From contig JAAXXZ010000001.1 in NCBI GenBank assembly GCA_013334245.1, positions 54,675 through 118,674 of the forward strand: DNA of 64,000 bases, read 5' to 3'. A program made the position numbers and the translations under genes. This DNA is from Candidatus Moraniibacteriota bacterium. Its GTDB lineage: Bacteria > Patescibacteriota > Minisyncoccia > Moranbacterales > UBA1568. The notes below the pieces were generated by a model. That model searched no databases, was not told where the DNA came from, and was given only the letters and a program-made list of their open reading frames with translations. Below, one piece after another: positions 2,728-61,470 of this stretch. Positions within the stretch are counted from its first letter, which is position 1, and each line of letters starts with the position of its first letter.

Positions 2728-2790
2728 CTCAGTTGGTAGAGCAGTGGCCTTTTAAGCCAACGGTCGCTGGTTCGAATCCAGCACGACCCA
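2718..2790 (+). tRNA. tRNA-Lys (anticodon UUU)
   Basis: Cloverleaf: acceptor GGGTCGT/ACGACCC, D-arm GCTC-AGTTGGTA-GAGC, anticodon loop CTTTTAA, T-arm GCTGG-TTCGAAT-CCAGC, discriminator A. No encoded CCA. Confidence 0.85.
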
Positions 2791-2888
2791 CACCGAGAAA
2801 ACATGCTCCATATCGATCAGTTGGTAGATCCGCCGGCTGGCGGACTGTTAAGCCAACGGTCGCTGGTTCGAATCCAGCACGACCCACC
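2791..2888 (+). repeat. tRNA-Lys-derived repeat copy C: leader CACCGAGAAAACATGCTCCATATCGATCA plus degenerate tRNA-like GTTGGTAGATCCGCCGGCTGGCGGACTGTTAAGCC...TTCGAATCCAGCACGACCCACC. It lacks a 5' acceptor strand and the anticodon arm is replaced by the palindrome TCCGCCGGCTGGCGGA
   Basis: 3' portion is identical to the tRNA-Lys 3' half. There is no GGGTCGT 5' strand, so no cloverleaf can form. The leader reappears in degenerate form after this copy (CCGAGAATAGACGCTCTATATCTATCAGTTG). Confidence 0.6.
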
Positions 2889-3716: not shown

Positions 3717-3785
3717 CGTTGGTAGATCCGCCGGCTGGCGGACTGTTAAGCCAACGGTCGCTGGTTCGAATCCAGCACGACCCAC
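3717..3785 (+). repeat. tRNA-Lys-derived repeat copy D (GTTGGTAGATCCGCCGGCTGGCGGACTGTTAAGCC...ACGACCCACC), identical to copy C body
   Basis: 69 nt identical to 2820-2888. No 5' acceptor strand upstream. Confidence 0.6.
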
Positions 3786-3793
3786 CGAAAACG

Positions 3794-3818
3794 AAAAGCC
3801 GCCATAGGGCGGTTTTTC
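3794..3818 (+). terminator. Rho-independent terminator-like hairpin AAAAGCCGCC-ATAG-GGCGGTTTTT
   Basis: GC stem 6 bp, 4-nt loop, followed by T5. Lies directly after repeat copy D. Confidence 0.5.
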
Positions 3819-8003: not shown

Positions 8004-8010
8004 AATCGGG

Positions 8011-8100
8011 AACTGACAACCTATAACTGACAACTTATAACCGTCCACATAATCAGTGGCTGAGATTTCTTGTTGTAAGTTGTTTGTTGTAAGTTATTCG
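8011..8100. repeat. dispersed intergenic repeat, motif B: AACTGACAACCTATAACTGACAACTTATAACC (8011-8042) and inverted GTTGTAAGTTGTTTGTTGTAAGTTATTCG (8072-8100)
   Basis: The same CAACTGACAACTTACAACTG-type motif recurs at 44471-44502 and 59080-59130. Confidence 0.55.
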
Positions 8101-8113
8101 TTTAATGACGTTG

Positions 8114-9371: not shown

Positions 9372-9374
9372 AGT

Positions 9375-9408
9375 CAGTGAACAGTTAACATGGAACAGAT
9401 AACAGGGA
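9375..9408. repeat. dispersed intergenic repeat, motif A (revcomp TCCCTGTTATCTGTTCCATGTTAACTG)
   Basis: Shares CTGTTATCTGTTCCATGT exactly with 35196-35221. Related copies at 10631-10663, 26813-26864, 43089-43133, 48345-48367, 58945-58978. Confidence 0.55.
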
Positions 9409-9502
9409 GCACGAACCGCACCCCCCCCGGCTCCTCTTCCAGAGAGGCGCTGCTGAGTCGTCGAAGGTGAGGGATAGGAGGCTCAACCTTCAATATACAA
9501 AT

Positions 9503-10607: not shown

Positions 10608-10663
10608 TAGCAAACGACGATTCTTCTTTCGTTGTTACCTGTTCAATGTTATCTGCTCCCTGG

Positions 10664-26812: not shown

Positions 26813-26864
26813 CGTTCCCCGTTCCCGGTTCCATGTTCCCCGTTATCTGTTATTTGATTTCCGT
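26813..26864. repeat. dispersed repeat motif A copy (CGTTCCCCGTTCCCGGTTCCATGTTCCCCGTTATCTGTTATTTG)
   Basis: Sequence similarity to 35229-35282, 9375-9408 and 43089-43133. Confidence 0.5.
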
Positions 26865-30526: not shown

Positions 30527-30957
30527 CGCTCCCGAAACAGGCTCATAAGCCGGATTCTGTTTGAATCATCATTTATCTGGGACCGTCGTTACCGACGACC
30601 TCGAGCGGCACTTCCCGGCTTTCGCCGGGACACGGCCTTGCACACGGATAAGGGTTTAGCCGTTTCACCCCGCGCGTTTCCGCACGGACTCATCCCGCAC
30701 CTATTTCGCACCCCGCTTTCGCGAACCGGATTTTTTCCGTTCAGAAATATTCCGGCCCTCAGAAATGGATAGGATGTGGAATAGGTGCGGGATGTCCTGC
30801 CCTTTCGGGCTGGGACGTCTCTGCTCGCACCTCGCGCCTCGCGGCGGACGGGTATTACCCGCTACCTGGTCCTCGGCTTGCGCCGATTCATGTGTCCGGA
30901 CTTTCCTCTCAAACGCCGCAAGCGGCGACTGAGCGATGATCCGACCTGTTTCGGGAA
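30527..30957 (-). ncRNA. rnpB: RNase P RNA (bacterial type A)
   Basis: Minus-strand transcript contains the universally conserved P4 strands GAGAGGAAAGTCCGGACAC (5') and ACAGAATCCGGCTTATGAGCC (3'). P1 pairs CCCGAAACAGG with CCTGTTTCGGG. Internal CCAGGTAGCGGGTAATACCCG and GGGTGAAACGGC resemble the P11/P12 regions. Fills a 555 bp gap with no plausible CDS. Confidence 0.8.
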
Positions 30958-31051: not shown

Positions 31052-33415
31052 TCACGAGGCTCGATCGCCACGGAAAGCCGCCCGAACGGAGCCGAGGACA
31101 GCTTCTACGGCCGCATCGGTTTCCTCGCCCGTAACGGTCCTATCGTCGTGTCCGAAGGTCAGATGAAAGGCTACGTTCTTCGTATCCCCCTTTTCGAATA
31201 TGTCGAACACCTCCGCCTTGCGTAACAGCGGTGAGGAATCACGGATCACACGTTCGATTTCCCCGATCGTTGTCCGCTTCGGAACTTCGATCGAGAGATC
31301 GCGTACCGAATACGGGAACCGCGGAAGCGGAACAAACGTCCGAACCGTGCCGTACGCCGACCGAAGAACGTCGAAATCGATCTGTGCCGAGACGACCGCC
31401 CCACGCAAATCGTACGCGGCGGTTGCCGAGGGAGAAATCTCCCCGGCCTCGCCAAGTACCTTCCCGCTCACCGAAAGCAGACCGACGCGCGTCGGATGAA
31501 ACATAGGGAACTCGTCGACCGCCCTCTCGAACGGAATCGGTTCCCAGGCGATTTCGCCAAGCCCCGCGAATGCGGACAGTTTCGAAATAAGACCCTTGAG
31601 CGCAGCGAAGGAATCCTCCCCTTTCTTCGCGACCAGCACGAGGGACAACATCGCGTTTTCGATCGGCTTCCCTCCTTCGCCGACCCTATACCGGTCGCCG
31701 ACTTCGAAAAATCCGAACGAATCGAAATATCGTATGTTTTCACCCGCCTTGCGAAGCGATGACGGGAGCAGGCTTGCCCGAAGCAGCGCCTGATCCGGAT
31801 TCATCGGATTCGCGAGACGCAGATGCCTGTCCGACATTCCCGGACCAAGCCGTTTCCCGTCGGTTTCCGAATAGAAGGAATAGGTCCTGATCTCGTCCAG
31901 ACCGGAAGCGGCAAGGAACTCGCGCAACTCGCGGGCGAACATTCCCGCTTCGTTTTTTTCAGGAGCGCAAAGCGGAACCAGCGGAGTCGTCGAAGGGAAA
32001 TGATCGTATCCGAGCATGCGGCCGATCTCCTCCGCGAAATCCCACCCGTCCCGGATATCGGGCCGGAAGGCGGGGACACGAACACTCCATTCCTCATCAC
32101 CCTCGGTCACCGTCATACCCAGATGTCCGAGTTTTTCCTTCGCGTCCGCCAGGTCTATGTCGGCACCGAACATATCTTTAAACACGGATGGTGAAAACGA
32201 TACGGAGACCGGTTCATCCGCTCGGGTCACTATGTCGACCGCGCCGACCACGTGAGCACCCGCCTCGGTGACGAAGAGATTCACCGCATCGATGGCGGAT
32301 GCGGTCGCCCGATCGGTATCGACGTTCCTTTCGTACCGATACGACGCGTCGGTCGGCAACCGATGCCTGACGACCGTCTTCCGGATCGATGCGGGATCGA
32401 ACGTGGCAACCTCGAGAAAAACGCGTTTCGTGTGCTCGGTAATACCGGTACGGTTCCCTCCCATCACTCCCGCAAGCGCGAGCGGACGGCTTTTGTCCGC
32501 GATGACCAGGTCTTCGACGGAAAGGCTCACGGTCTTGCCGTCGAGCAATTCCAACGTCTCCCCGTCCTTCGCCTGCCGCACCACGATGCCCCCTTCCACG
32601 GTATCCGCGTCGAACGCATGCATCGGCTGTCCGAAGACCAGGAGCGAGTAGTTCGTGATATCGACCGCCATGGAAATCGGTCGGAATCCTGACCGGAGCA
32701 GCACGGATCGCAGCCACAGAGGAGATGAACCCGAAGTCACTCCCTCGAACGCGATACCGAGATACCGCCGACATCGGTCTGATTCGATCGACACCGGAAC
32801 CGAGAATTCGGGATACGACGGGAGCGGTGACGATTCAAGATCGAACGTGGCAGAGCGGCCTTCAAGCGCCGAGATTTCCCGCGCCATCCCACGATACGAG
32901 ACCGCATCGCACCCGCGATTCGGGAGGATATTCACGTCGAGAATCATATCCTCGAGGCCGACATATGTCGCGAACGGTGTTCCAATCGGCGCATCCTCCG
33001 GAAGGACAAGGATGCCCTCGTGACCGGTACCGATGCCAAGCTCGTCTTCCGCACAGATCATGCCCGACGATGCCACGCCACGAATGACGGTTTCCTTTAT
33101 AACGATACCGCCGGGGAGCGAGGCTTGAGGCAAAGCGACAGCGACTTTCTGGCCGACCGCCACGTTCGGCGCCCCACAGACGATGGTCCTCGCAGGATTA
33201 CCTTCCTCGGTCACGACCGTCGTCACGCGCAGACGATCGGCATCGGGATGCTGTACGACCGATTCCACCCGGCCGACCACGACACCCTCGAGTCCGTGTG
33301 CGAACGGCTCGACGGATTCGACCTCGAACGAATGAAACATGATGAGCTCCGCGAGCTGTTCGGCGGTCTTCTCGGTTCCGGACAACTGTCTAAGCAGGTT
33401 GTAGGAAAATTTCAT
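31052..33415 (-). CDS. pheT: phenylalanine--tRNA ligase beta subunit
   Basis: MKFSYNLLRQL N-terminus, tRNA-binding OB, B3/B4, B5 and FDX-ACB domains. 787 aa. Paired with pheS. Confidence 0.9.
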   Translation of the reverse strand: MKFSYNLLRQLSGTEKTAEQLAELIMFHSFEVESVEPFAHGLEGVVVGRVESVVQHPDADRLRVTTVVTEEGNPARTIVCGAPNVAVGQKVAVALPQASLPGGIVIKETVIRGVASSGMICAEDELGIGTGHEGILVLPEDAPIGTPFATYVGLEDMILDVNILPNRGCDAVSYRGMAREISALEGRSATFDLESSPLPSYPEFSVPVSIESDRCRRYLGIAFEGVTSGSSPLWLRSVLLRSGFRPISMAVDITNYSLLVFGQPMHAFDADTVEGGIVVRQAKDGETLELLDGKTVSLSVEDLVIADKSRPLALAGVMGGNRTGITEHTKRVFLEVATFDPASIRKTVVRHRLPTDASYRYERNVDTDRATASAIDAVNLFVTEAGAHVVGAVDIVTRADEPVSVSFSPSVFKDMFGADIDLADAKEKLGHLGMTVTEGDEEWSVRVPAFRPDIRDGWDFAEEIGRMLGYDHFPSTTPLVPLCAPEKNEAGMFARELREFLAASGLDEIRTYSFYSETDGKRLGPGMSDRHLRLANPMNPDQALLRASLLPSSLRKAGENIRYFDSFGFFEVGDRYRVGEGGKPIENAMLSLVLVAKKGEDSFAALKGLISKLSAFAGLGEIAWEPIPFERAVDEFPMFHPTRVGLLSVSGKVLGEAGEISPSATAAYDLRGAVVSAQIDFDVLRSAYGTVRTFVPLPRFPYSVRDLSIEVPKRTTIGEIERVIRDSSPLLRKAEVFDIFEKGDTKNVAFHLTFGHDDRTVTGEETDAAVEAVLGSVRAAFRGDRAS

Positions 33416-33465
33416 AAATGCGCGTCATTAGCTTCATTAGCTTCGTCAAGCTTCTTAAGCTTCCT
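33416..33465. repeat. AGCTT-rich direct repeats (CATTAGCTT x2, AAGCTTC x3) at the 3' end of the four-helix-bundle gene
   Basis: TCATTAGCTTCATTAGCTTCGTCAAGCTTCTTAAGCTTCC read from sequence. Partner block at 33833-33985. Confidence 0.5.
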
Positions 33466-33838
33466 CCGATTTCGGATTAAGTTTTCTGATCATACTTCTG
33501 AGCATTCGGCCGGTTTCCGATAGAAGACACTCCGACCTCTTGAAATCGAGCTTCTTCGTCTTCGGGAGCATCTTCGCGATTTCCACTTGTGTTTCCAATT
33601 CTCCGGTCGAACCGAGCGCTATCCTTAAGAACTGGATGAATTCTTTTTTCGTCCCCCGGTACCTCCCCTCCGCGATATTGGACGGAATGGATACTGCGGC
33701 CCGACGCATCTGCGATACCAACCCGTACACCTCCTCTTTCGGAAACTCTTCCGTCACATCATATGTCTCAGTGACCAATTCCATAGCTCTCTGCCAGACG
33801 ATCAACTCCTTGTAACTGTGTAACATATCAAGCCTCAT
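33455..33838 (-). CDS. four-helix-bundle protein (23S rRNA intervening-sequence protein family, TIGR02436-like)
   Basis: 127 aa; LIVWQRAMELV...VSQMRRAAVSIPSNIAEG...FLRIALGSTGELETQ is the family signature. Inserted between pheS and pheT. Confidence 0.8.
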   Translation of the reverse strand: MRLDMLHSYKELIVWQRAMELVTETYDVTEEFPKEEVYGLVSQMRRAAVSIPSNIAEGRYRGTKKEFIQFLRIALGSTGELETQVEIAKMLPKTKKLDFKRSECLLSETGRMLRSMIRKLNPKSEEA

Positions 33839-33985
33839 TAGCTTTTTTAAAGCTTCGCGTGCTTCATAAATTTTCTCTTAGGAAGCTTTTGCAGCTTCCG
33901 AAGATTCTGCAGCTTTTCTTCTTCCCCGTTCCCTTAAGCTATCGAAGCTCTCGCAACTTATTCAGCTTCCGAAGCTCATCTAAAA
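33833..33985. repeat. AGCTT/GCAGCTTCCGAAG-rich repeat block (CATTAGCTT, AAGCTTC, GCAGCTTCCGAAG x2-3) between the four-helix-bundle gene start and pheS stop
   Basis: Read from sequence. AT-richer than surroundings. Confidence 0.5.
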
Positions 33986-35017
33986 TTGCCTTATAAATCG
34001 GAGGTCGCCGCTCATGAACATGCGAGTATCTGGAATACGGTTCTTCATCATCGAAAGTCGTTCCAGACCGAACCCCCACGCGAATCCCTGATATTTTCCG
34101 CGCGGATAGCCGGCCGCCTCGAACACCTTCTGCTGCACCATCCCCGCCCCTCCGATCTCCAGCCATCCGATCCCCTTACATGCCGGACACCCCTTCCCGC
34201 CGCAGAACACGCACGAGATGTCGAATTCGAAACCCGGCTCGACAAACGGGAAATAACTCGGACGAAGCCGAACGGTGATCGAACGGCCGAAAAACTCGGA
34301 AAAGAACGTCTCCGCGACATGCTTGAGATGTCCCACGGTCACGCTTCCGGTCTCGCCGACGACCAGGCTCTCGAACTGATGGAACGTATGTTCGTGCACG
34401 GCATCCGTCGACTCGCACCGGAACGTACGCCCCGGAACGATGATACGGAACGGCGGTGTATGCGTTTCCATATACCTGACCTGCACCGGGGACGTGTGCG
34501 TACGAAGCACGTAGCGGGTATCCAACCCGTCGCTGTCCACCCAGAAGGTGTCCTGCATATCACGCGCCGGATGATCGGCGGGAAAGTTCAACGCCTCGAA
34601 ATTATAGAAATCACTTTCGACATCCGGACCGTCGGCGATCCCGAATCCCATTCCCGTGAATATGTCCTCGATCTCGTGGATCAACGTGGTGATCGGATGC
34701 AGATGACCCATCGGGGTCGGAACGCCGGGTGCCGTCACGTCGATCCGCTCGGCCTCCCAATCGCGGCCTTCGTGTGCGATGCGCTCAGCCGCCGCCGAGA
34801 ACGCCTCCGAAAGTGCCGCACGGACACCCTGTACGAGCGGACCGACCGTCCGCTTCTCTTCAGCATCGAGATCTTTGAGTCCCTTCAGGATTCCCGTAAG
34901 CTCGCTCTTTCTCCCCAAAAACCGAACCTCGAGCTCGCGAAGCGATTCTTCGGAGTCCGCTTCCGCGAACGCTTTCTTCCCTTCCTCCTCGATAGCCCTG
35001 ATTCGTTCGGTATCCAT
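33980..35017 (-). CDS. pheS: phenylalanine--tRNA ligase alpha subunit
   Basis: Class II motifs (FPFVEPGFEFDISC, GWLEIGGAGMV, FAWGFGLERLSM). 345 aa. Confidence 0.9.
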   Translation of the reverse strand: MDTERIRAIEEEGKKAFAEADSEESLRELEVRFLGRKSELTGILKGLKDLDAEEKRTVGPLVQGVRAALSEAFSAAAERIAHEGRDWEAERIDVTAPGVPTPMGHLHPITTLIHEIEDIFTGMGFGIADGPDVESDFYNFEALNFPADHPARDMQDTFWVDSDGLDTRYVLRTHTSPVQVRYMETHTPPFRIIVPGRTFRCESTDAVHEHTFHQFESLVVGETGSVTVGHLKHVAETFFSEFFGRSITVRLRPSYFPFVEPGFEFDISCVFCGGKGCPACKGIGWLEIGGAGMVQQKVFEAAGYPRGKYQGFAWGFGLERLSMMKNRIPDTRMFMSGDLRFIRQF

Positions 35018-35195
35018 AAGAAAAGCGCATTAAAACGCTTTTATGGTATCACCGAACCGCCCGCGGGTCAAAAAGGCCAGTGAACCATAATCGGTTTGCA
35101 AAGAGCACATAACATATGACGGGGAATCCCGGACTCGCTTCCCGACTACAGGCTGACGCGTTCACATTCTTGTATCCCAACTTCTTATCCGTATT

Positions 35196-35282: not shown

Positions 35283-35403
35283 CTTTGTGTTATACTGTTT
35301 TCGAAGACCTCCAGAACGGGGCGTTGAATACAATGAAACCCACCTGGCCTTTCAGGGAAAAGCATTTTTTTCCGACAATCGCTTATCATGGGATTCATAC
35401 GCG

Positions 35404-35566
35404 CCCCCGCATTGGGGGTTTTTCGTTTTCAAAAACTGCCCCCTCCGATTCCGACGCACACAGGAGGCGACTCATCCGGCCTCCGCAACGGGGTTTTTCG
35501 TATAAAAAAATTCGTCGGAAAAATCAGCACCATTCAGGCTCCATACTGCCCCCACAACGAGGTTTT
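35404..35566 (+). terminator. three tandem terminator-like hairpins, each GC-stem/5-nt-loop followed by TTTTTCG (35404-35425, 35479-35497, 35548-35566)
   Basis: CCCCCGCATTGGGGGTTTTTCG, CCTCCGCAACGGGGTTTTTCG and CCCCCACAACGAGGTTTTTCG. No plus-strand CDS lies upstream, so they may end an unannotated small RNA or act as regulatory hairpins. Confidence 0.4.
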
Positions 35567-35710
35567 TCGTTTTTTGGAAAAACTGCAGCTTTAAACGACA
35601 AGGATGGAGCTGCTTTTGTTTAATCGTCCACATATCCACTTGCTATCCTTTGGGAAAAATGGTATGAAGGACTGTTCATTTTGAACACCAACTTAACAAT
35701 AAGGCAGAAC

Positions 35711-43459: not shown

Positions 43460-43571
43460 AATCGAAGCGGAGTAATGAATGAAGAATCAGGAATAAAGAA
43501 TACGGCCTCAGAAATCAAAACTGGAACATGCGTACCGTATCGACTTTCGACTTTTCACTTTCGACTCGACA

Positions 43572-44468: not shown

Positions 44469-44470
44469 AG

Positions 44471-44502
44471 AACTGACGTACAACTGACAACTTACAACTG
44501 AG
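44471..44502. repeat. dispersed repeat motif B copy (AACTGACGTACAACTGACAACTTACAACTGAG)
   Basis: Matches 8011-8042. Confidence 0.55.
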
Positions 44503-48279: not shown

Positions 48280-48344
48280 AGCAAAAGAATCAAGAATGAA
48301 GAATATGAAATCAAGAATCCAAAACGGGGAATCAGGCTCTTTTC

Positions 48345-58918: not shown

Positions 58919-58944
58919 ATTGGTATACTGGAGTCAGTAAACGG

Positions 58945-59130
58945 AGAGCAGATAACAATTAGCAGGGAACAAATAACGTTTTCCTTCGTAGTTATTGGTT
59001 ATTAACCGCTCTCCCGTTCCCAGTCAACCGTTTAATGCGGAGTTATCAGTCATTGATCGTTCCCGTTCCATGCAACTATTGTCAGTGGTCAGTTATTAGT
59101 TGTCAGTCATCTGTTGTAGTTGTTAGTTAT
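58945..59130. repeat. cluster of dispersed repeats upstream of dnaX: motif A copies (58945-58978, 59058-59076) and motif B-like GTCAGT/GTTGT repeats (59080-59130)
   Basis: Sequence similarity to motif A and B copies elsewhere in the window. Confidence 0.5.
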
Positions 59131-60867: not shown

Positions 60868-60939
60868 TGGGGAGTCGCCAAGCGGTAAGGCAACAGGTTT
60901 TGGTCCTGTCATACGGGGGTTCGAATCCCTCCTCCCCAA
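60868..60939 (+). tRNA. tRNA-Gln (anticodon UUG)
   Basis: TGGGGAGTCGCCAAGCGGTAAGGCAACAGGTTTTGGTCCTGTCATACGGGGGTTCGAATCCCTCCTCCCCAA closely parallels E. coli tRNA-Gln (UGGGGUAUCGCCAAGCGGUAAGGCACCGGUUUUUGAUACCGG...). Acceptor TGGGGAG/CTCCCCA, anticodon loop TTTTGGT. Confidence 0.85.
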
Positions 60940-60955
60940 CACGAGCATAGCGAGG

Positions 60956-61470
60956 GTTGGGGAGGAGGGATTCGAACGGGCAGGAACGATCCGCCAGCTG
61001 GCGGAGAGCGTAGATGAATGCGAGCGAGCGCAGCATTCAACTCTGCCCTGGACAAGGAGCGAAGCGACGCGAAAATCCCTCATAACAGATTGCATAGTGA
61101 GCGTTGTTGGGGAGGAGGGATTCGAACGAGCAGAAGCGATCCGCCAGCTGGCGGAGAGCGTAGATGAATGCGAGCGAGCGCAGCATTCAACTCTGCCCTG
61201 GACAAGGAGCGAAGCGACGCGAAAATCCCTCCCCCGCTCTAGCATAGCGAGGGTTGGGGAGGAGGGATTCGAACCGGTGACAGCAAAGCAAGGTAGAGTC
61301 CAGCAGGACGATACCGCCACGTTCGCCGACAAATGCGACCTTAGAAGCATTTGGCGCCACCGTGGACAAGAAGCCTTCCGTAGGAAGGTGACGCGAAAAT
61401 CCTTCCGCATATTCAAACACAGTGAGCGTTGTTGGGGAGGAGGGATTCGAACGAGCAGAAGCGACTACCC
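60956..61470 (-). repeat. tandem array of four MITE-like units (periods of about 150, 147 and 178 bp; last unit truncated). Each starts with GTTGGGGAGGAGGGATTCGAAC, the reverse complement of the tRNA-Gln 3' end. Units 1-2 carry the perfect palindrome TCCGCCAGCTGGCGGA and end in an imperfect terminal inverted repeat (..GCGAAAATCCCTCC)
   Basis: Units at 60956, 61106, 61253 and 61431. Units 1 and 2 are near-identical internally; unit 3 has a different core. ORF-track ORFs 60400..61416 and 60716..61489 across this region are artefacts of the repeats. Confidence 0.6.

What the first reader, a model, noticed from the sequence alone, without database searches (positions are those of the whole stretch)
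33416..33985. Four-helix-bundle (rRNA intervening-sequence family) gene inserted between pheS and pheT, flanked by CATTAGCTT / AAGCTTC direct repeats
pheS and pheT are normally adjacent and co-transcribed. Here a 127 aa TIGR02436-type four-helix-bundle gene sits between them. The same short repeats occur at both ends: CATTAGCTT at 33425 and 33434 and again overlapping the gene start at about 33836, and AAGCTTC / GCAGCTTCCGAAG several times in the 140 bp before pheS. This protein family was first found inside 23S rRNA intervening sequences and is suspected to travel with small mobile insertions. The flanking direct repeats fit a cassette-like insertion into the pheST operon.
Basis: partly seen in the sequence, partly recalled or inferred. 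Interest (0 to 1): 0.55.

Follow-up and report, generated by a model that had tools for sequence, protein, structure and literature searches.

The report
Four-helix-bundle gene cassette splitting pheS-pheT
A small, conserved gene of the "23S rRNA intervening-sequence protein" family sits between the two phenylalanyl-tRNA synthetase genes of a Moranbacteria genome. It is bracketed by arrays of short repeats that accompany this gene family wherever it occurs, so it looks like a self-contained cassette that can live inside operons.

Summary
A PF05635/TIGR02436 four-helix-bundle (4HB) gene lies between pheS and pheT on the minus strand. All three window copies of CATTAGCTT are at this locus (0.13 expected), as are 11 of the 46 GAAGCT sites.

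The repeats are not insertion scars. They are arrays of short units flanking the ORF. Among 75 unrelated 4HB loci, 55 have a chain of TAG-containing units upstream and 57 a chain of complementary CTA units downstream, mostly 7 nt apart. The arrays abut the neighbours' stop and start codons. Between different genomic contexts, nucleotide homology is confined to arrays plus ORF, so the unit has relocated as a whole.

At this site the cassette is old. It is present in relatives down to 67% PheS identity and evolves under purifying selection (dN/dS 0.06-0.16). It is also polymorphic: very close relatives lack it cleanly, and others keep deletion remnants. Other lineages carry a different 4HB subfamily, a NUDIX gene or ORF-less hairpins at the same junction.

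The flanks are predicted to pair and enclose the ORF, as in the RNase III-excised 23S rRNA intervening sequence of Coxiella. That RNA-level mechanism is inferred, not shown. I found no description of this architecture in the searchable literature.

The parts
33980..35017 (-). pheS (phenylalanine--tRNA ligase alpha subunit, 345 aa); stop codon TAG at 33982-33980
   Evidence: TIGR00468, 293.7 bits; identical to NCBI NTW89359.1
35043..35071 (-). sigma-70-like promoter match about 25 nt upstream of the pheS ATG. No promoter-like or terminator-like match lies between the pheS stop and the pheT start.
   Evidence: consensus scan only; the count does not exceed the shuffles
33936..33987 (-). Outer upstream array, the predicted 5' arm. 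Units are GAGCTTCG / GAAGCTGAA / TAAGTTGCGA / GAGCTTCGA / TAGCTTAAGG, degenerate TAGCTT-type units. It overlaps the pheS stop codon.
   Evidence: pairs with 33408-33462 in the MFE and centroid folds, 40 bp in 10 short helices, mean pair probability 0.89
33827..33935 (-). Inner upstream segment specific to the WIN/L001/L003/L004 sub-clade and absent from L008. It holds the GGGAACGGGGAAG motif, further GAAGCT units, one AAGCTAATG unit (33844-33836) and a GAGG (33836-33833) 6 nt before the likely start codon.
33455..33826 (-). Four-helix-bundle protein gene (PF05635 / TIGR02436 / NF008911), 123 aa from M5. The longest ORF starts at 33838 (127 aa).
   Evidence: PDB 2GSC E 4.2e-22; dN/dS 0.06-0.16
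33408..33466 (-). Downstream array, the predicted 3' arm. Units are GAAGCTTAA / GAAGCTTGAC / GAAGCTAAT / GAAGCTAAT / GAC. It begins in the last codons of the 4HB ORF and runs to the pheT ATG (33415-33413).
31052..33415 (-). pheT (phenylalanine--tRNA ligase beta subunit, 787 aa)
   Evidence: TIGR00472, 649 bits; NTW89357.1

Best explanation
What it is (shown). This is a self-contained gene cassette of the 23S-rRNA-intervening-sequence-protein family. It consists of an upstream array of short tandem units, a 123-aa four-helix-bundle ORF, and a downstream array of related units. It is fitted exactly between the stop codon of pheS and the start codon of pheT, and no promoter-like or terminator-like match lies inside it. 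The same architecture accompanies this gene family in dozens of unrelated operon junctions in Patescibacteria. It also appears on cyanobacterial plasmids and in the Coxiella 23S rRNA IVS. Arrays plus ORF behave as one relocatable unit. At this site the cassette was acquired once, at the base of a Moranbacteria sub-clade. It has been kept under purifying selection and lost several times by deletion, so it is now a presence/absence polymorphism in a recombining population. How it works (inferred). In the pheS-4HB-pheT transcript the two arrays pair into a long, interrupted stem that loops out the 4HB ORF. This brings the 3' end of pheS next to the 5' end of pheT. As with the rRNA IVS, that stem would make the insertion tolerable to the host in one of two ways. 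It could be an RNase III processing site that releases the 4HB mRNA and separates the flanking cistrons. Alternatively it could restore termination-reinitiation coupling of pheT to pheS, because the pheS stop and the pheT AUG lie in the same predicted helix. The conserved 4HB protein has a function of its own, probably nucleic-acid binding as in its relative Avd. That function is not identified here.
For: Gene identity. Same position and synteny in relatives with 74-99% 4HB identity. The 4HB is as conserved as PheS (WIN vs L008: PheS 67%, 4HB 73%, PheT 55%). dN/dS 0.06-0.16. Flank arrays of the same type occur in all clade members despite upstream lengths of 44-197 nt. Family-wide data on 75-80 loci follow. 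TAG is the commonest trinucleotide in the 60 nt upstream (4.0 per locus) and CTA downstream (4.2), with spacings of 7 nt (116), 8 nt (52) and 9 nt (18). There are 56 TAG chains within 120 nt upstream against 27 in about 398 kb elsewhere, with strict polarity: upstream 56 TAG chains against 7 CTA chains, downstream 58 CTA chains against 4 TAG chains. Upstream and downstream arrays of the same locus are complementary. Shared 6-mers are 11.2 against 5.1 for other loci's flanks. Duplex energy is -45.1 kcal/mol against -34.2 cross-locus and -28.6 shuffled. The dominant core matches in 32 of 53 loci against 14.8 after permutation, maximum 23 in 2000 permutations. In whole-element MFE folds, 63 of 80 loci have at least 15 flank-to-flank pairs, against 16 of 80 with shuffled 3' flanks. 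Window fold: 40 pairs, mean probability 0.89, including the pheS stop and the pheT AUG. L008 folds the same way. Operon-internal position: 64 of 75 loci lie between co-directional genes. The upstream gene ends at a TAG in 49 of 64 loci, and in 35 of those another TAG follows at 7-9 nt. The downstream ATG overlaps the last CTA in 14 of 57 loci. Relocation as a unit: homology is limited to about -30..+390 in pairs from different contexts. Gain and loss. Coxiella precedent: a 28-bp terminal stem cut by RNase III, and 2-3 tandem heptamers directly upstream of the S23p ATG (PMC4990558).
Against: There are no transcript data. Within the clade the predicted pairs are invariant AGCU cores, with no compensatory change in 27 pairs, which says nothing for or against the stem. 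Mismatches between the arms show no G.U-over-A.C bias (145 against 167, p = 0.23), so selection on the sense RNA strand is not demonstrated. The stems consist of 4-7 bp helices separated by internal loops and about 69% of aligned positions match, so they are poorer RNase III substrates than the Coxiella stem. Swapped flanks from other loci also pair in 41 of 80 folds, because many loci share the AGCT core. On a Pseudanabaena plasmid the arrays are in direct orientation, and in the window an inner segment carries direct GAAGCT units. Whole-element fold z-scores are modest, -2.0 and -1.5.
Confidence: 0.5

Rival explanations
1. DNA-level mobile cassette. The arrays are the ends recognised by a trans-acting recombinase or transposase, or they form ssDNA hairpins or cruciforms used for insertion, excision and cargo exchange. 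Any RNA stem would be a by-product. This does not exclude the RNA model.
For: Arrays plus ORF relocate as a unit with sharp boundaries. The same junction holds different cargo in related lineages: two 4HB subfamilies, a NUDIX gene, an unknown ORF, or nothing. A clean empty site exists in L098. ORF-less TAG/CTA hairpins are scattered in the same genomes, in a MITE-like manner. No sense-strand G.U bias was found.
Against: No recombinase, transposase or integrase travels with the cassette. No target-site duplication was seen. No pair of near-identical copies in different sites was found; the closest is about 80% nt, 88% aa. The array core varies among loci, which is hard to reconcile with one sequence-specific enzyme.
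Confidence: 0.3
2. The arrays are binding sites for the 4HB protein itself. Relatives of this protein form homopentamers, and each array holds about 3-5 units. Binding would give autoregulation or an RNP or DNP complex around its own gene.
For: The closest solved relative, XCC0516 (2GSC), is a pentamer of four-helix bundles (PMC4990558). The protein shows weak similarity to the DGR protein Avd; that Avd binds nucleic acid is from my own knowledge. Arrays have about 3-5 units, and the array-gene association is strict.
Against: The units differ among loci (AGCT, AGGT, AGTT, AGGG, AGGC cores) while the proteins stay 55-70% identical. ORF-less arrays and arrays around a NUDIX gene exist. No binding data exist.
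Confidence: 0.15
3. The arrays are neutral, slippage-prone low-complexity spacer DNA typical of these genomes, like cyanobacterial STRR repeats. They would only coincide with 4HB genes.
For: Other spacers of the window hold heptamer-type arrays without a 4HB gene. Array copy number varies between relatives and between Coxiella strains.
Against: TAG-chain density next to 4HB genes is about 90 times that elsewhere, with strict TAG-upstream and CTA-downstream polarity relative to the gene. Arms are complementary in a locus-specific way. The arrays move together with the ORF.
Confidence: 0.08
4. A recent insertion whose flanking direct repeats are target-site duplications, or the Avd accessory gene of a diversity-generating retroelement.
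For: The unit AAGCTAATG occurs on both sides of the ORF. There are weak Avd hits.
Against: The cassette is present at this site down to 67% PheS identity, where dS is saturated. The repeats are multi-copy arrays, not a single duplicated target. Avd model NF033474 scores 28.8 against a cutoff of 80 and PF22296 scores 28.1 against a cutoff of 40. No reverse transcriptase is called within about 5 kb in any relative.
Confidence: 0.03

Closest known systems
23S rRNA intervening sequences carrying an S23p/PF05635 ORF (Leptospira, Coxiella burnetii, Brucella, Xanthomonas)
   Same: Same protein family. The ORF is looped out by complementary termini. Short tandem repeats (heptamers GACAGAT x2-3 in Coxiella) lie directly upstream of the ATG and vary in copy number. 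The element sits inside a host transcript without its own obvious promoter (PMC4990558).
   Different: The host transcript here is an mRNA operon junction, not helix 25 or 45 of 23S rRNA. The predicted stem is an interrupted series of 4-7 bp helices rather than a near-perfect 28-bp stem. The ORF here is under purifying selection, whereas the Coxiella ORF is decaying. RNase III cleavage is untested here.
Cyanobacterial STRR (short tandemly repeated repetitive) heptanucleotide sequences
   Same: Both are tandem 7-nt units in intergenic spacers. Cyanobacterial PF05635 genes are flanked by such heptamers, including the same AGCT core: TAGCTGT / AAAGCTA in Calothrix and AAAGCTA x17 in Pseudanabaena.
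   Different: STRRs are described as dispersed repeats (my own knowledge). I found no paper linking them to PF05635 genes. The window's units have a 9-nt period.
DGR accessory variability determinant (Avd)
   Same: Homologous four-helix-bundle fold family (PF22296 and NF033474 weak hits; phrog_3206) (PMC10053308).
   Different: All scores are below the family cutoffs. No reverse transcriptase, template repeat or variable repeat is nearby.
REP/BIME-type intergenic palindromes and MITEs
   Same: Both are hairpin-forming repeats placed between co-transcribed genes. ORF-less versions of the arrays exist.
   Different: The arms here are built from tandem TAG/CTA-containing 7-9-nt units. They usually enclose a conserved gene. 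No RAYT-type or other transposase is associated.
Integron gene cassettes
   Same: Both are promoterless single-gene units inserted in the host's transcriptional orientation, with cargo that differs between relatives at one site.
   Different: There is no attC, attI or integrase. Repeats flank both sides. The sites are scattered operon junctions rather than one array.

Membership tests
PF05635 / TIGR02436 four-helix-bundle (23S rRNA IVS) protein | Match to the family HMMs above the curated cutoffs | tested here: met
   PF05635: 126.8 bits against a cutoff of 33.8. TIGR02436: 123.4 against 24. NF008911: 143.5 against 137.
PF05635 / TIGR02436 four-helix-bundle (23S rRNA IVS) protein | Four-helix-bundle fold assembling into a homopentamer, as in XCC0516 | not tested
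   Only sequence similarity to 2GSC was obtained (E 4.2e-22 over residues 5-94). No structure was predicted.
PF05635 / TIGR02436 four-helix-bundle (23S rRNA IVS) protein | Conserved motif GxxRxxxSxxxNxxE, reported in PMC3936711 | tested here: inconclusive
   The protein has R-AAV-S-IPS-N-IA-E (RxxxSxxxNxxE), read directly from the translation. The position three residues before the R is Q, not G. S49, N50, E53, G54 and R55 are invariant in alignment A1.
23S rRNA intervening sequence (IVS) element | Located inside a 23S rRNA gene (helix 25 or 45) | tested here: not met
   It lies between pheS and pheT. Rfam finds only RNase P RNA and three tRNAs in the window.
23S rRNA intervening sequence (IVS) element | Complementary termini forming a stem that encloses the ORF | tested here: met
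   Prediction only: 40 flank-to-flank pairs, mean probability 0.89. At least 15 such pairs occur in 63 of 80 family loci. There is no covariation within the clade.
23S rRNA intervening sequence (IVS) element | Excision by RNase III | not testable with these tools
   Needs transcript ends or an in-vitro cleavage assay.
23S rRNA intervening sequence (IVS) element | [quoted passage not shown] | tested here: met
   Window: units with a 9-nt period. Family: 7-nt spacing is dominant.
DGR Avd | Equivalog HMM above its cutoff and adjacency to a DGR reverse transcriptase and TR/VR | tested here: not met
   NF033474 scores 28.8 against a cutoff of 80. No RT is among the genes called within about 5 kb in six related loci. 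The window itself was not scanned gene by gene for an RT.
Transposon / MITE | Terminal inverted repeats plus a target-site duplication, and multiple near-identical copies | tested here: inconclusive
   The ends are inverted arrays and unit-like relocation is seen. No TSD was seen, and no copies above about 80% nt identity were found in different sites.
Integron cassette | A single attC downstream, with integrase and attI nearby | tested here: not met
   Repeats lie on both sides. No integrase is among the genes called around any related locus.

The most novel reading that the evidence does not exclude
PF05635 four-helix-bundle genes with their TAG/CTA short-repeat arrays form a previously undescribed class of operon-resident, IVS-like mobile cassette. 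They would be widespread in Patescibacteria and cyanobacteria. They insert seamlessly between the stop and start codons of co-transcribed housekeeping genes and neutralise themselves through an RNA stem, by RNase III processing or restored translational coupling. They would leave ORF-less hairpins or exchange cargo at the same landing pad. The Avd-like protein might take part in its own mobility, possibly through reverse transcription, or in RNA processing. The classical 23S rRNA IVS would then be one special case of this element.
Probability: 0.3. Interest if true: 0.8.

Novelty: new variant of a known kind. Interest (0 to 1): 0.62.

Why it matters
The PF05635/TIGR02436 family is very large: the search scored 8000 candidates and 7996 passed E <= 0.001. 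It is routinely annotated and still has no known function. Its one studied context, the 23S rRNA IVS, has been treated as an oddity of rRNA. The data here suggest the IVS is one instance of a general cassette that lives inside transcripts. It has a recognisable signature: TAG-unit array, ORF, CTA-unit array. That gives three practical results. First, a sequence rule for finding such cassettes and their ORF-less remnants. Second, an explanation for why these genes turn up inside unrelated operons, including cas operons (PMC3936711; Pseudanabaena cas6-4HB-cas4). Third, testable hypotheses for how small streamlined genomes tolerate insertions in essential operons. It also warns annotators that the arrays can extend or terminate neighbouring ORFs: the upstream gene ends at a TAG in 49 of 64 loci, and in 35 of those another TAG follows at 7-9 nt, so the stop lies within an array.

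Tried and rejected
1. An exact look-up of the 127-aa ORF found nothing. The database holds the 123-aa form.
2. The GTDB representative genomes hold no close relative of this cassette. The best hit is 69% identical, so the clade analysis relied on metagenome contigs.
3. A G.U versus A.C mismatch asymmetry test for sense-strand RNA selection showed no bias.
4. RNAalifold on the arms of six clade members gave a conserved structure with zero compensatory changes.
5. Whole-element fold z-scores are only -2.0 and -1.5.
6. PADLOC gave no hit, and PHROGs gave only a weak Avd hit. A defence-system or DGR role is not supported.
7. The promoter/terminator scan found nothing inside the cassette. This is consistent with co-transcription but is not evidence for it.
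8. Literature searches for TIGR02436, PF05635, four helix bundle + Patescibacteria, and STRR + S23/four helix bundle found no description of the flanking arrays. Ralph & McClelland 1993 is not held in the library.
9. Target-site duplication was rejected because the repeats are multi-copy arrays shared by the whole family.
10. Recent insertion was rejected on the phylogenetic distribution.
11. One duplex-energy script timed out and one script failed on a coding error. Both were rerun.

Full report
**The locus.** On the minus strand the window encodes pheS (35017..33980), a small ORF (33838..33455) and pheT (33415..31052). Pfam and NCBIfam identify the outer genes unambiguously. The small ORF is a PF05635 "23S rRNA-intervening sequence protein" / TIGR02436 "four helix bundle protein" (E about 1e-36). 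It also passes the cutoff of subfamily NF008911, while the DGR-Avd models score far below their cutoffs. The nearest solved structure by sequence is XCC0516 (2GSC, E 4e-22). PMC4990558 describes XCC0516 as a pentamer of four-helix bundles. All relatives start at MIHSYKEL, which corresponds to M5 of the window ORF (33826). NCBI annotates the 123-aa form (NTW89358.1), between NTW89357.1 (pheT) and NTW89359.1 (pheS), in a "Candidatus Moranbacteria bacterium" MAG. An RNase P RNA follows pheT. A promoter-like match precedes pheS, and no promoter-like or terminator-like match lies between the pheS stop and the pheT start.

**The repeats are real.** CATTAGCTT occurs three times in 64 kb, all at this locus (33426, 33435, 33836), against 0.13 expected. 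Eleven of the 46 GAAGCT sites lie in 33430-33976. TRF reports a 9-nt period array at 33425-33463. Read in gene orientation, the 141 nt between pheS and the longest ORF, and the 39 nt between the ORF and pheT, consist largely of (G/A)AGCT(T/G)-type units.

**History at this site.** Proteins 74-99% identical to the window's 4HB all lie between pheS and pheT in the same neighbourhood: LPG-synthase-like gene, pheS, 4HB, pheT, Bac_transf, QueH. The 4HB is as conserved as PheS and more conserved than PheT. For the window against L008 the identities are PheS 67%, 4HB 73% and PheT 55%. Its dN/dS is 0.06-0.16, similar to that of the synthetase genes. So it is a functional, vertically inherited gene.

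The cassette is nevertheless not universal:
- L098 (PheS 96% aa, pheT 97% nt identical to the window) has pheS-TGA-TCGT-ATG-pheT.
- L096 and L097 have a 49-nt spacer with a single GAAGCTA unit.
- L101 keeps only about the last 20 codons of the 4HB ORF plus the downstream array.
- L106 keeps both arrays and the two ends of the ORF.
- L102 has a 32-nt spacer.

On a PheS tree the deepest branch of the clade (L008) has the cassette and the sister group lacks it. The simplest history is one gain followed by at least four losses. Sliding-window identity shows a mosaic. The window and L001 are 100% identical across the cassette but only 84-94% identical in pheS. The cassette is therefore a segregating polymorphism in a recombining population.

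**The junction elsewhere.** Among 68 metagenomic relatives with both genes on one contig, 39 have pheS and pheT 30 nt or less apart. Other lineages carry different content at the same junction:
- a different PF05635 subfamily, 33-35% identical to the window's (L143, L174; probably also L134 and L159);
- a 59%-identical 4HB in a distant genome, L065 (PheS 47% identical);
- a NUDIX gene inside the same kind of arrays (L135);
- an unknown ORF (L137);
- ORF-less hairpins built from tandem heptamers (L121, L124, L126, L141), with fold z-scores of -5.1 and -7.6 for L124 and L126.

**The arrays belong to the gene family.** In 80 loci from species-representative genomes, mostly Patescibacteria, nearly every 4HB gene has the same layout. 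Upstream there is an array of 3-5 units that each contain TAG. Downstream there is an array of the reverse-complement units that each contain CTA, and it starts within the last codons of the ORF. That overlap explains C-terminal tails such as NEANEAKS. The figures are:
- TAG is the commonest trinucleotide in the 60 nt upstream (4.0 per locus) and CTA downstream (4.2).
- Spacing between successive TAGs is 7 nt (116 cases), 8 nt (52) or 9 nt (18).
- Chains of three or more TAGs are about 90 times denser next to the gene than elsewhere in the same loci.
- The polarity is strict: upstream there are 56 TAG chains against 7 CTA chains, and downstream 58 CTA chains against 4 TAG chains.
- The core after TAG differs among loci (CTT, GTT, TTT, GGA and others), but the upstream and downstream cores of one locus match: 32 of 53, against 14.8 after permutation.
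- Shared 6-mers between the upstream flank and the reverse complement of the downstream flank average 11.2, against 4.3 in direct orientation and 5.1 for other loci's flanks.
- Duplex energies are -45.1 kcal/mol for a locus's own flanks, -34.2 cross-locus and -28.6 shuffled.

The window's TAGCTT/AAGCTA type is the commonest (24 of 53). Its clade is atypical in two ways. The units have a 9-nt period and have drifted towards the palindrome GAAGCTTC. In addition, the WIN/L001/L003/L004 sub-clade has an extra segment of roughly 100 nt between the canonical upstream array and the ATG. L008 keeps a compact 44-nt array.

**Position and mobility of the unit.** Of 75 loci, 64 lie between two co-directional genes with very short spacers. 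The upstream gene ends at a TAG in 49 of 64 loci, and in 35 of those another TAG follows at 7-9 nt. The downstream ATG overlaps the last CTA (CTATG) in 14 of 57 loci. Some contexts recur, for example upstream of a PrgI-like MQFKVPQF gene, a cysS-like gene, and ligA-like, fpg-like and pilC-like genes. The 4HB sequences do not cluster by context. In pairs 78-88% identical in protein but sitting in different contexts, nucleotide homology of 70-90% covers only the ORF plus about 30 nt of array on each side. It drops to background outside. Arrays plus ORF have therefore relocated as one unit. No near-identical copies at different sites were found, so no recent event is documented. The same loci also hold ORF-less pairs of a TAG array and a CTA array 8-57 nt apart, and the window has two such hairpins.

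**Beyond Patescibacteria.** On cyanobacterial plasmids PF05635 genes are also flanked by heptamer arrays:
- Calothrix: TAGCTGT upstream and AAAGCTA downstream.
- Pseudanabaena: AAAGCTA x17 upstream and AAAGCCA x9 downstream, between cas6 and cas4, in direct orientation.
- Nostoc: AAACTTC upstream and CTTCTGC downstream.

A metagenomic study had already noted 23S_rRNA_IVP genes inside cas loci (PMC3936711). In the Coxiella 23S rRNA IVS the S23p ORF is preceded by 2-3 tandem GACAGAT heptamers of variable copy number. It is enclosed by a 28-bp terminal stem that RNase III cleaves (PMC4990558). The architecture found here therefore matches the classical IVS, but the host is an mRNA operon.

**Mechanism.** Folding the window's element (33990..33405, minus strand) pairs 33987-33936 with 33408-33462. 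This gives 40 bp in ten short helices with a mean pair probability of 0.89. The helices include the pheS stop codon and the U and G of the pheT AUG. L008 folds in the same way. Across the family, 63 of 80 elements have at least 15 flank-to-flank pairs in the MFE structure, against 16 of 80 with shuffled 3' flanks. I therefore favour an RNA-level, IVS-like role. The stem loops out the 4HB ORF and juxtaposes the flanking cistrons. It could act either as an RNase III site or as a device that restores termination-reinitiation coupling of pheT to pheS.

This step is inference, and several results weaken it:
- The clade shows no compensatory changes.
- Arm mismatches show no G.U bias.
- The stems are interrupted.
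- Some loci have arrays in direct orientation.

A DNA-level role of the arrays in insertion, excision or cargo exchange is a serious and non-exclusive rival. Binding of the arrays by the probably pentameric protein is a third possibility. Neutral slippage DNA, a recent insertion with target duplication, and a DGR Avd are disfavoured by the data cited above.

**Novelty.** The gene is an ordinary, already annotated member of a known family. To my knowledge, and within the searchable literature, three things are not described:
- the family-wide signature of TAG array, ORF and CTA array;
- its seamless placement at operon junctions;
- the gain, loss and cargo-exchange pattern at the pheS-pheT junction.

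I rate it a new variant of a known kind: an IVS-type element resident in mRNA operons.

Noticed in passing
window 2746-2823, 2842-2919, 3740-3817: The 3' half of tRNA-Lys(ttt) (gene at 2718-2791), plus some downstream sequence, is repeated twice more at 90% and 73% identity. This resembles att-site scars of elements integrated at the tRNA.
   Followed up: partly
window 60943-61464: Directly after tRNA-Gln (60868-60940) lies a 150-nt tandem repeat of 2.2 copies at 89-98% identity, with a further partial copy at 61418-61464. Each unit holds a GGGATTCGAAC piece resembling a tRNA 3' end.
   Followed up: partly
window 35398-35570: Three copies of a roughly 29-nt motif, a G+C-rich hairpin followed by TTTTTCGT on the + strand, are spaced 69-75 nt apart in the 660-nt non-coding region upstream of pheS. 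The nearby 29-nt repeat TCC..CTGCCACCTGTTATCTGTT occurs twice, at 35188 and 35241.
   Followed up: no
window 8004-8106 and 58935-59035: ORF-less hairpins whose arms are tandem heptamer-type units (AACTGACAAC.. / ..GTTGTAAGTT; CAGATAACAA.. / ..GTTATTGGTTAT). Fold z-scores are -3.0 and -2.1. They look like cargo-less versions of the cassette arms.
   Followed up: partly
window 9372-9410, 10630-10663, 26813-26844, 43476-43571, 44469-44500, 48280-48330: One-sided arrays of 7-nt-type units (GGAACAG/ATAACAG, CGTTCCC x4.6, AAGAATC x5, TCGACTT, ACAACTG) lie at gene boundaries throughout the window. Their function is unknown.
   Followed up: no
window 30530-30952 (-): RNase P RNA (class A) lies directly downstream of pheT. 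It scores only 112 bits against a gathering score of 100, so it is a divergent RNA.
   Followed up: no
window 33400-35000 compared with L001, L098, L096 and L003: Nucleotide identity between strains is strongly mosaic. Against L001 the cassette is 100% identical while pheS is 84-94%. Against L098 pheT is 98-100% identical while pheS is 85-92%. This indicates frequent homologous recombination, with breakpoints near the pheS/cassette junction.
   Followed up: partly
L181 (Pseudanabaena galeata plasmid pPg_01) 1040-1700: A PF05635 gene lies between cas6 and cas4, flanked by AAAGCTA x17 upstream and AAAGCCA x9 downstream. Such arrays next to cas genes could be mistaken for CRISPR-like repeats.
   Followed up: partly
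L135 4529-5182: A NUDIX-domain gene (E 6e-15) sits between pheS and pheT inside TAGCT/AGCTA arrays of the same type that flank 4HB genes. The arrays can therefore carry other cargo.
   Followed up: partly
L096 (GCA_035560715.1): This MAG is labelled 'Candidatus Fimivivens sp.', but its PheS and PheT are 91% and 93% identical to those of this Moranbacteria window. The label is probably a binning or naming error.
   Followed up: no
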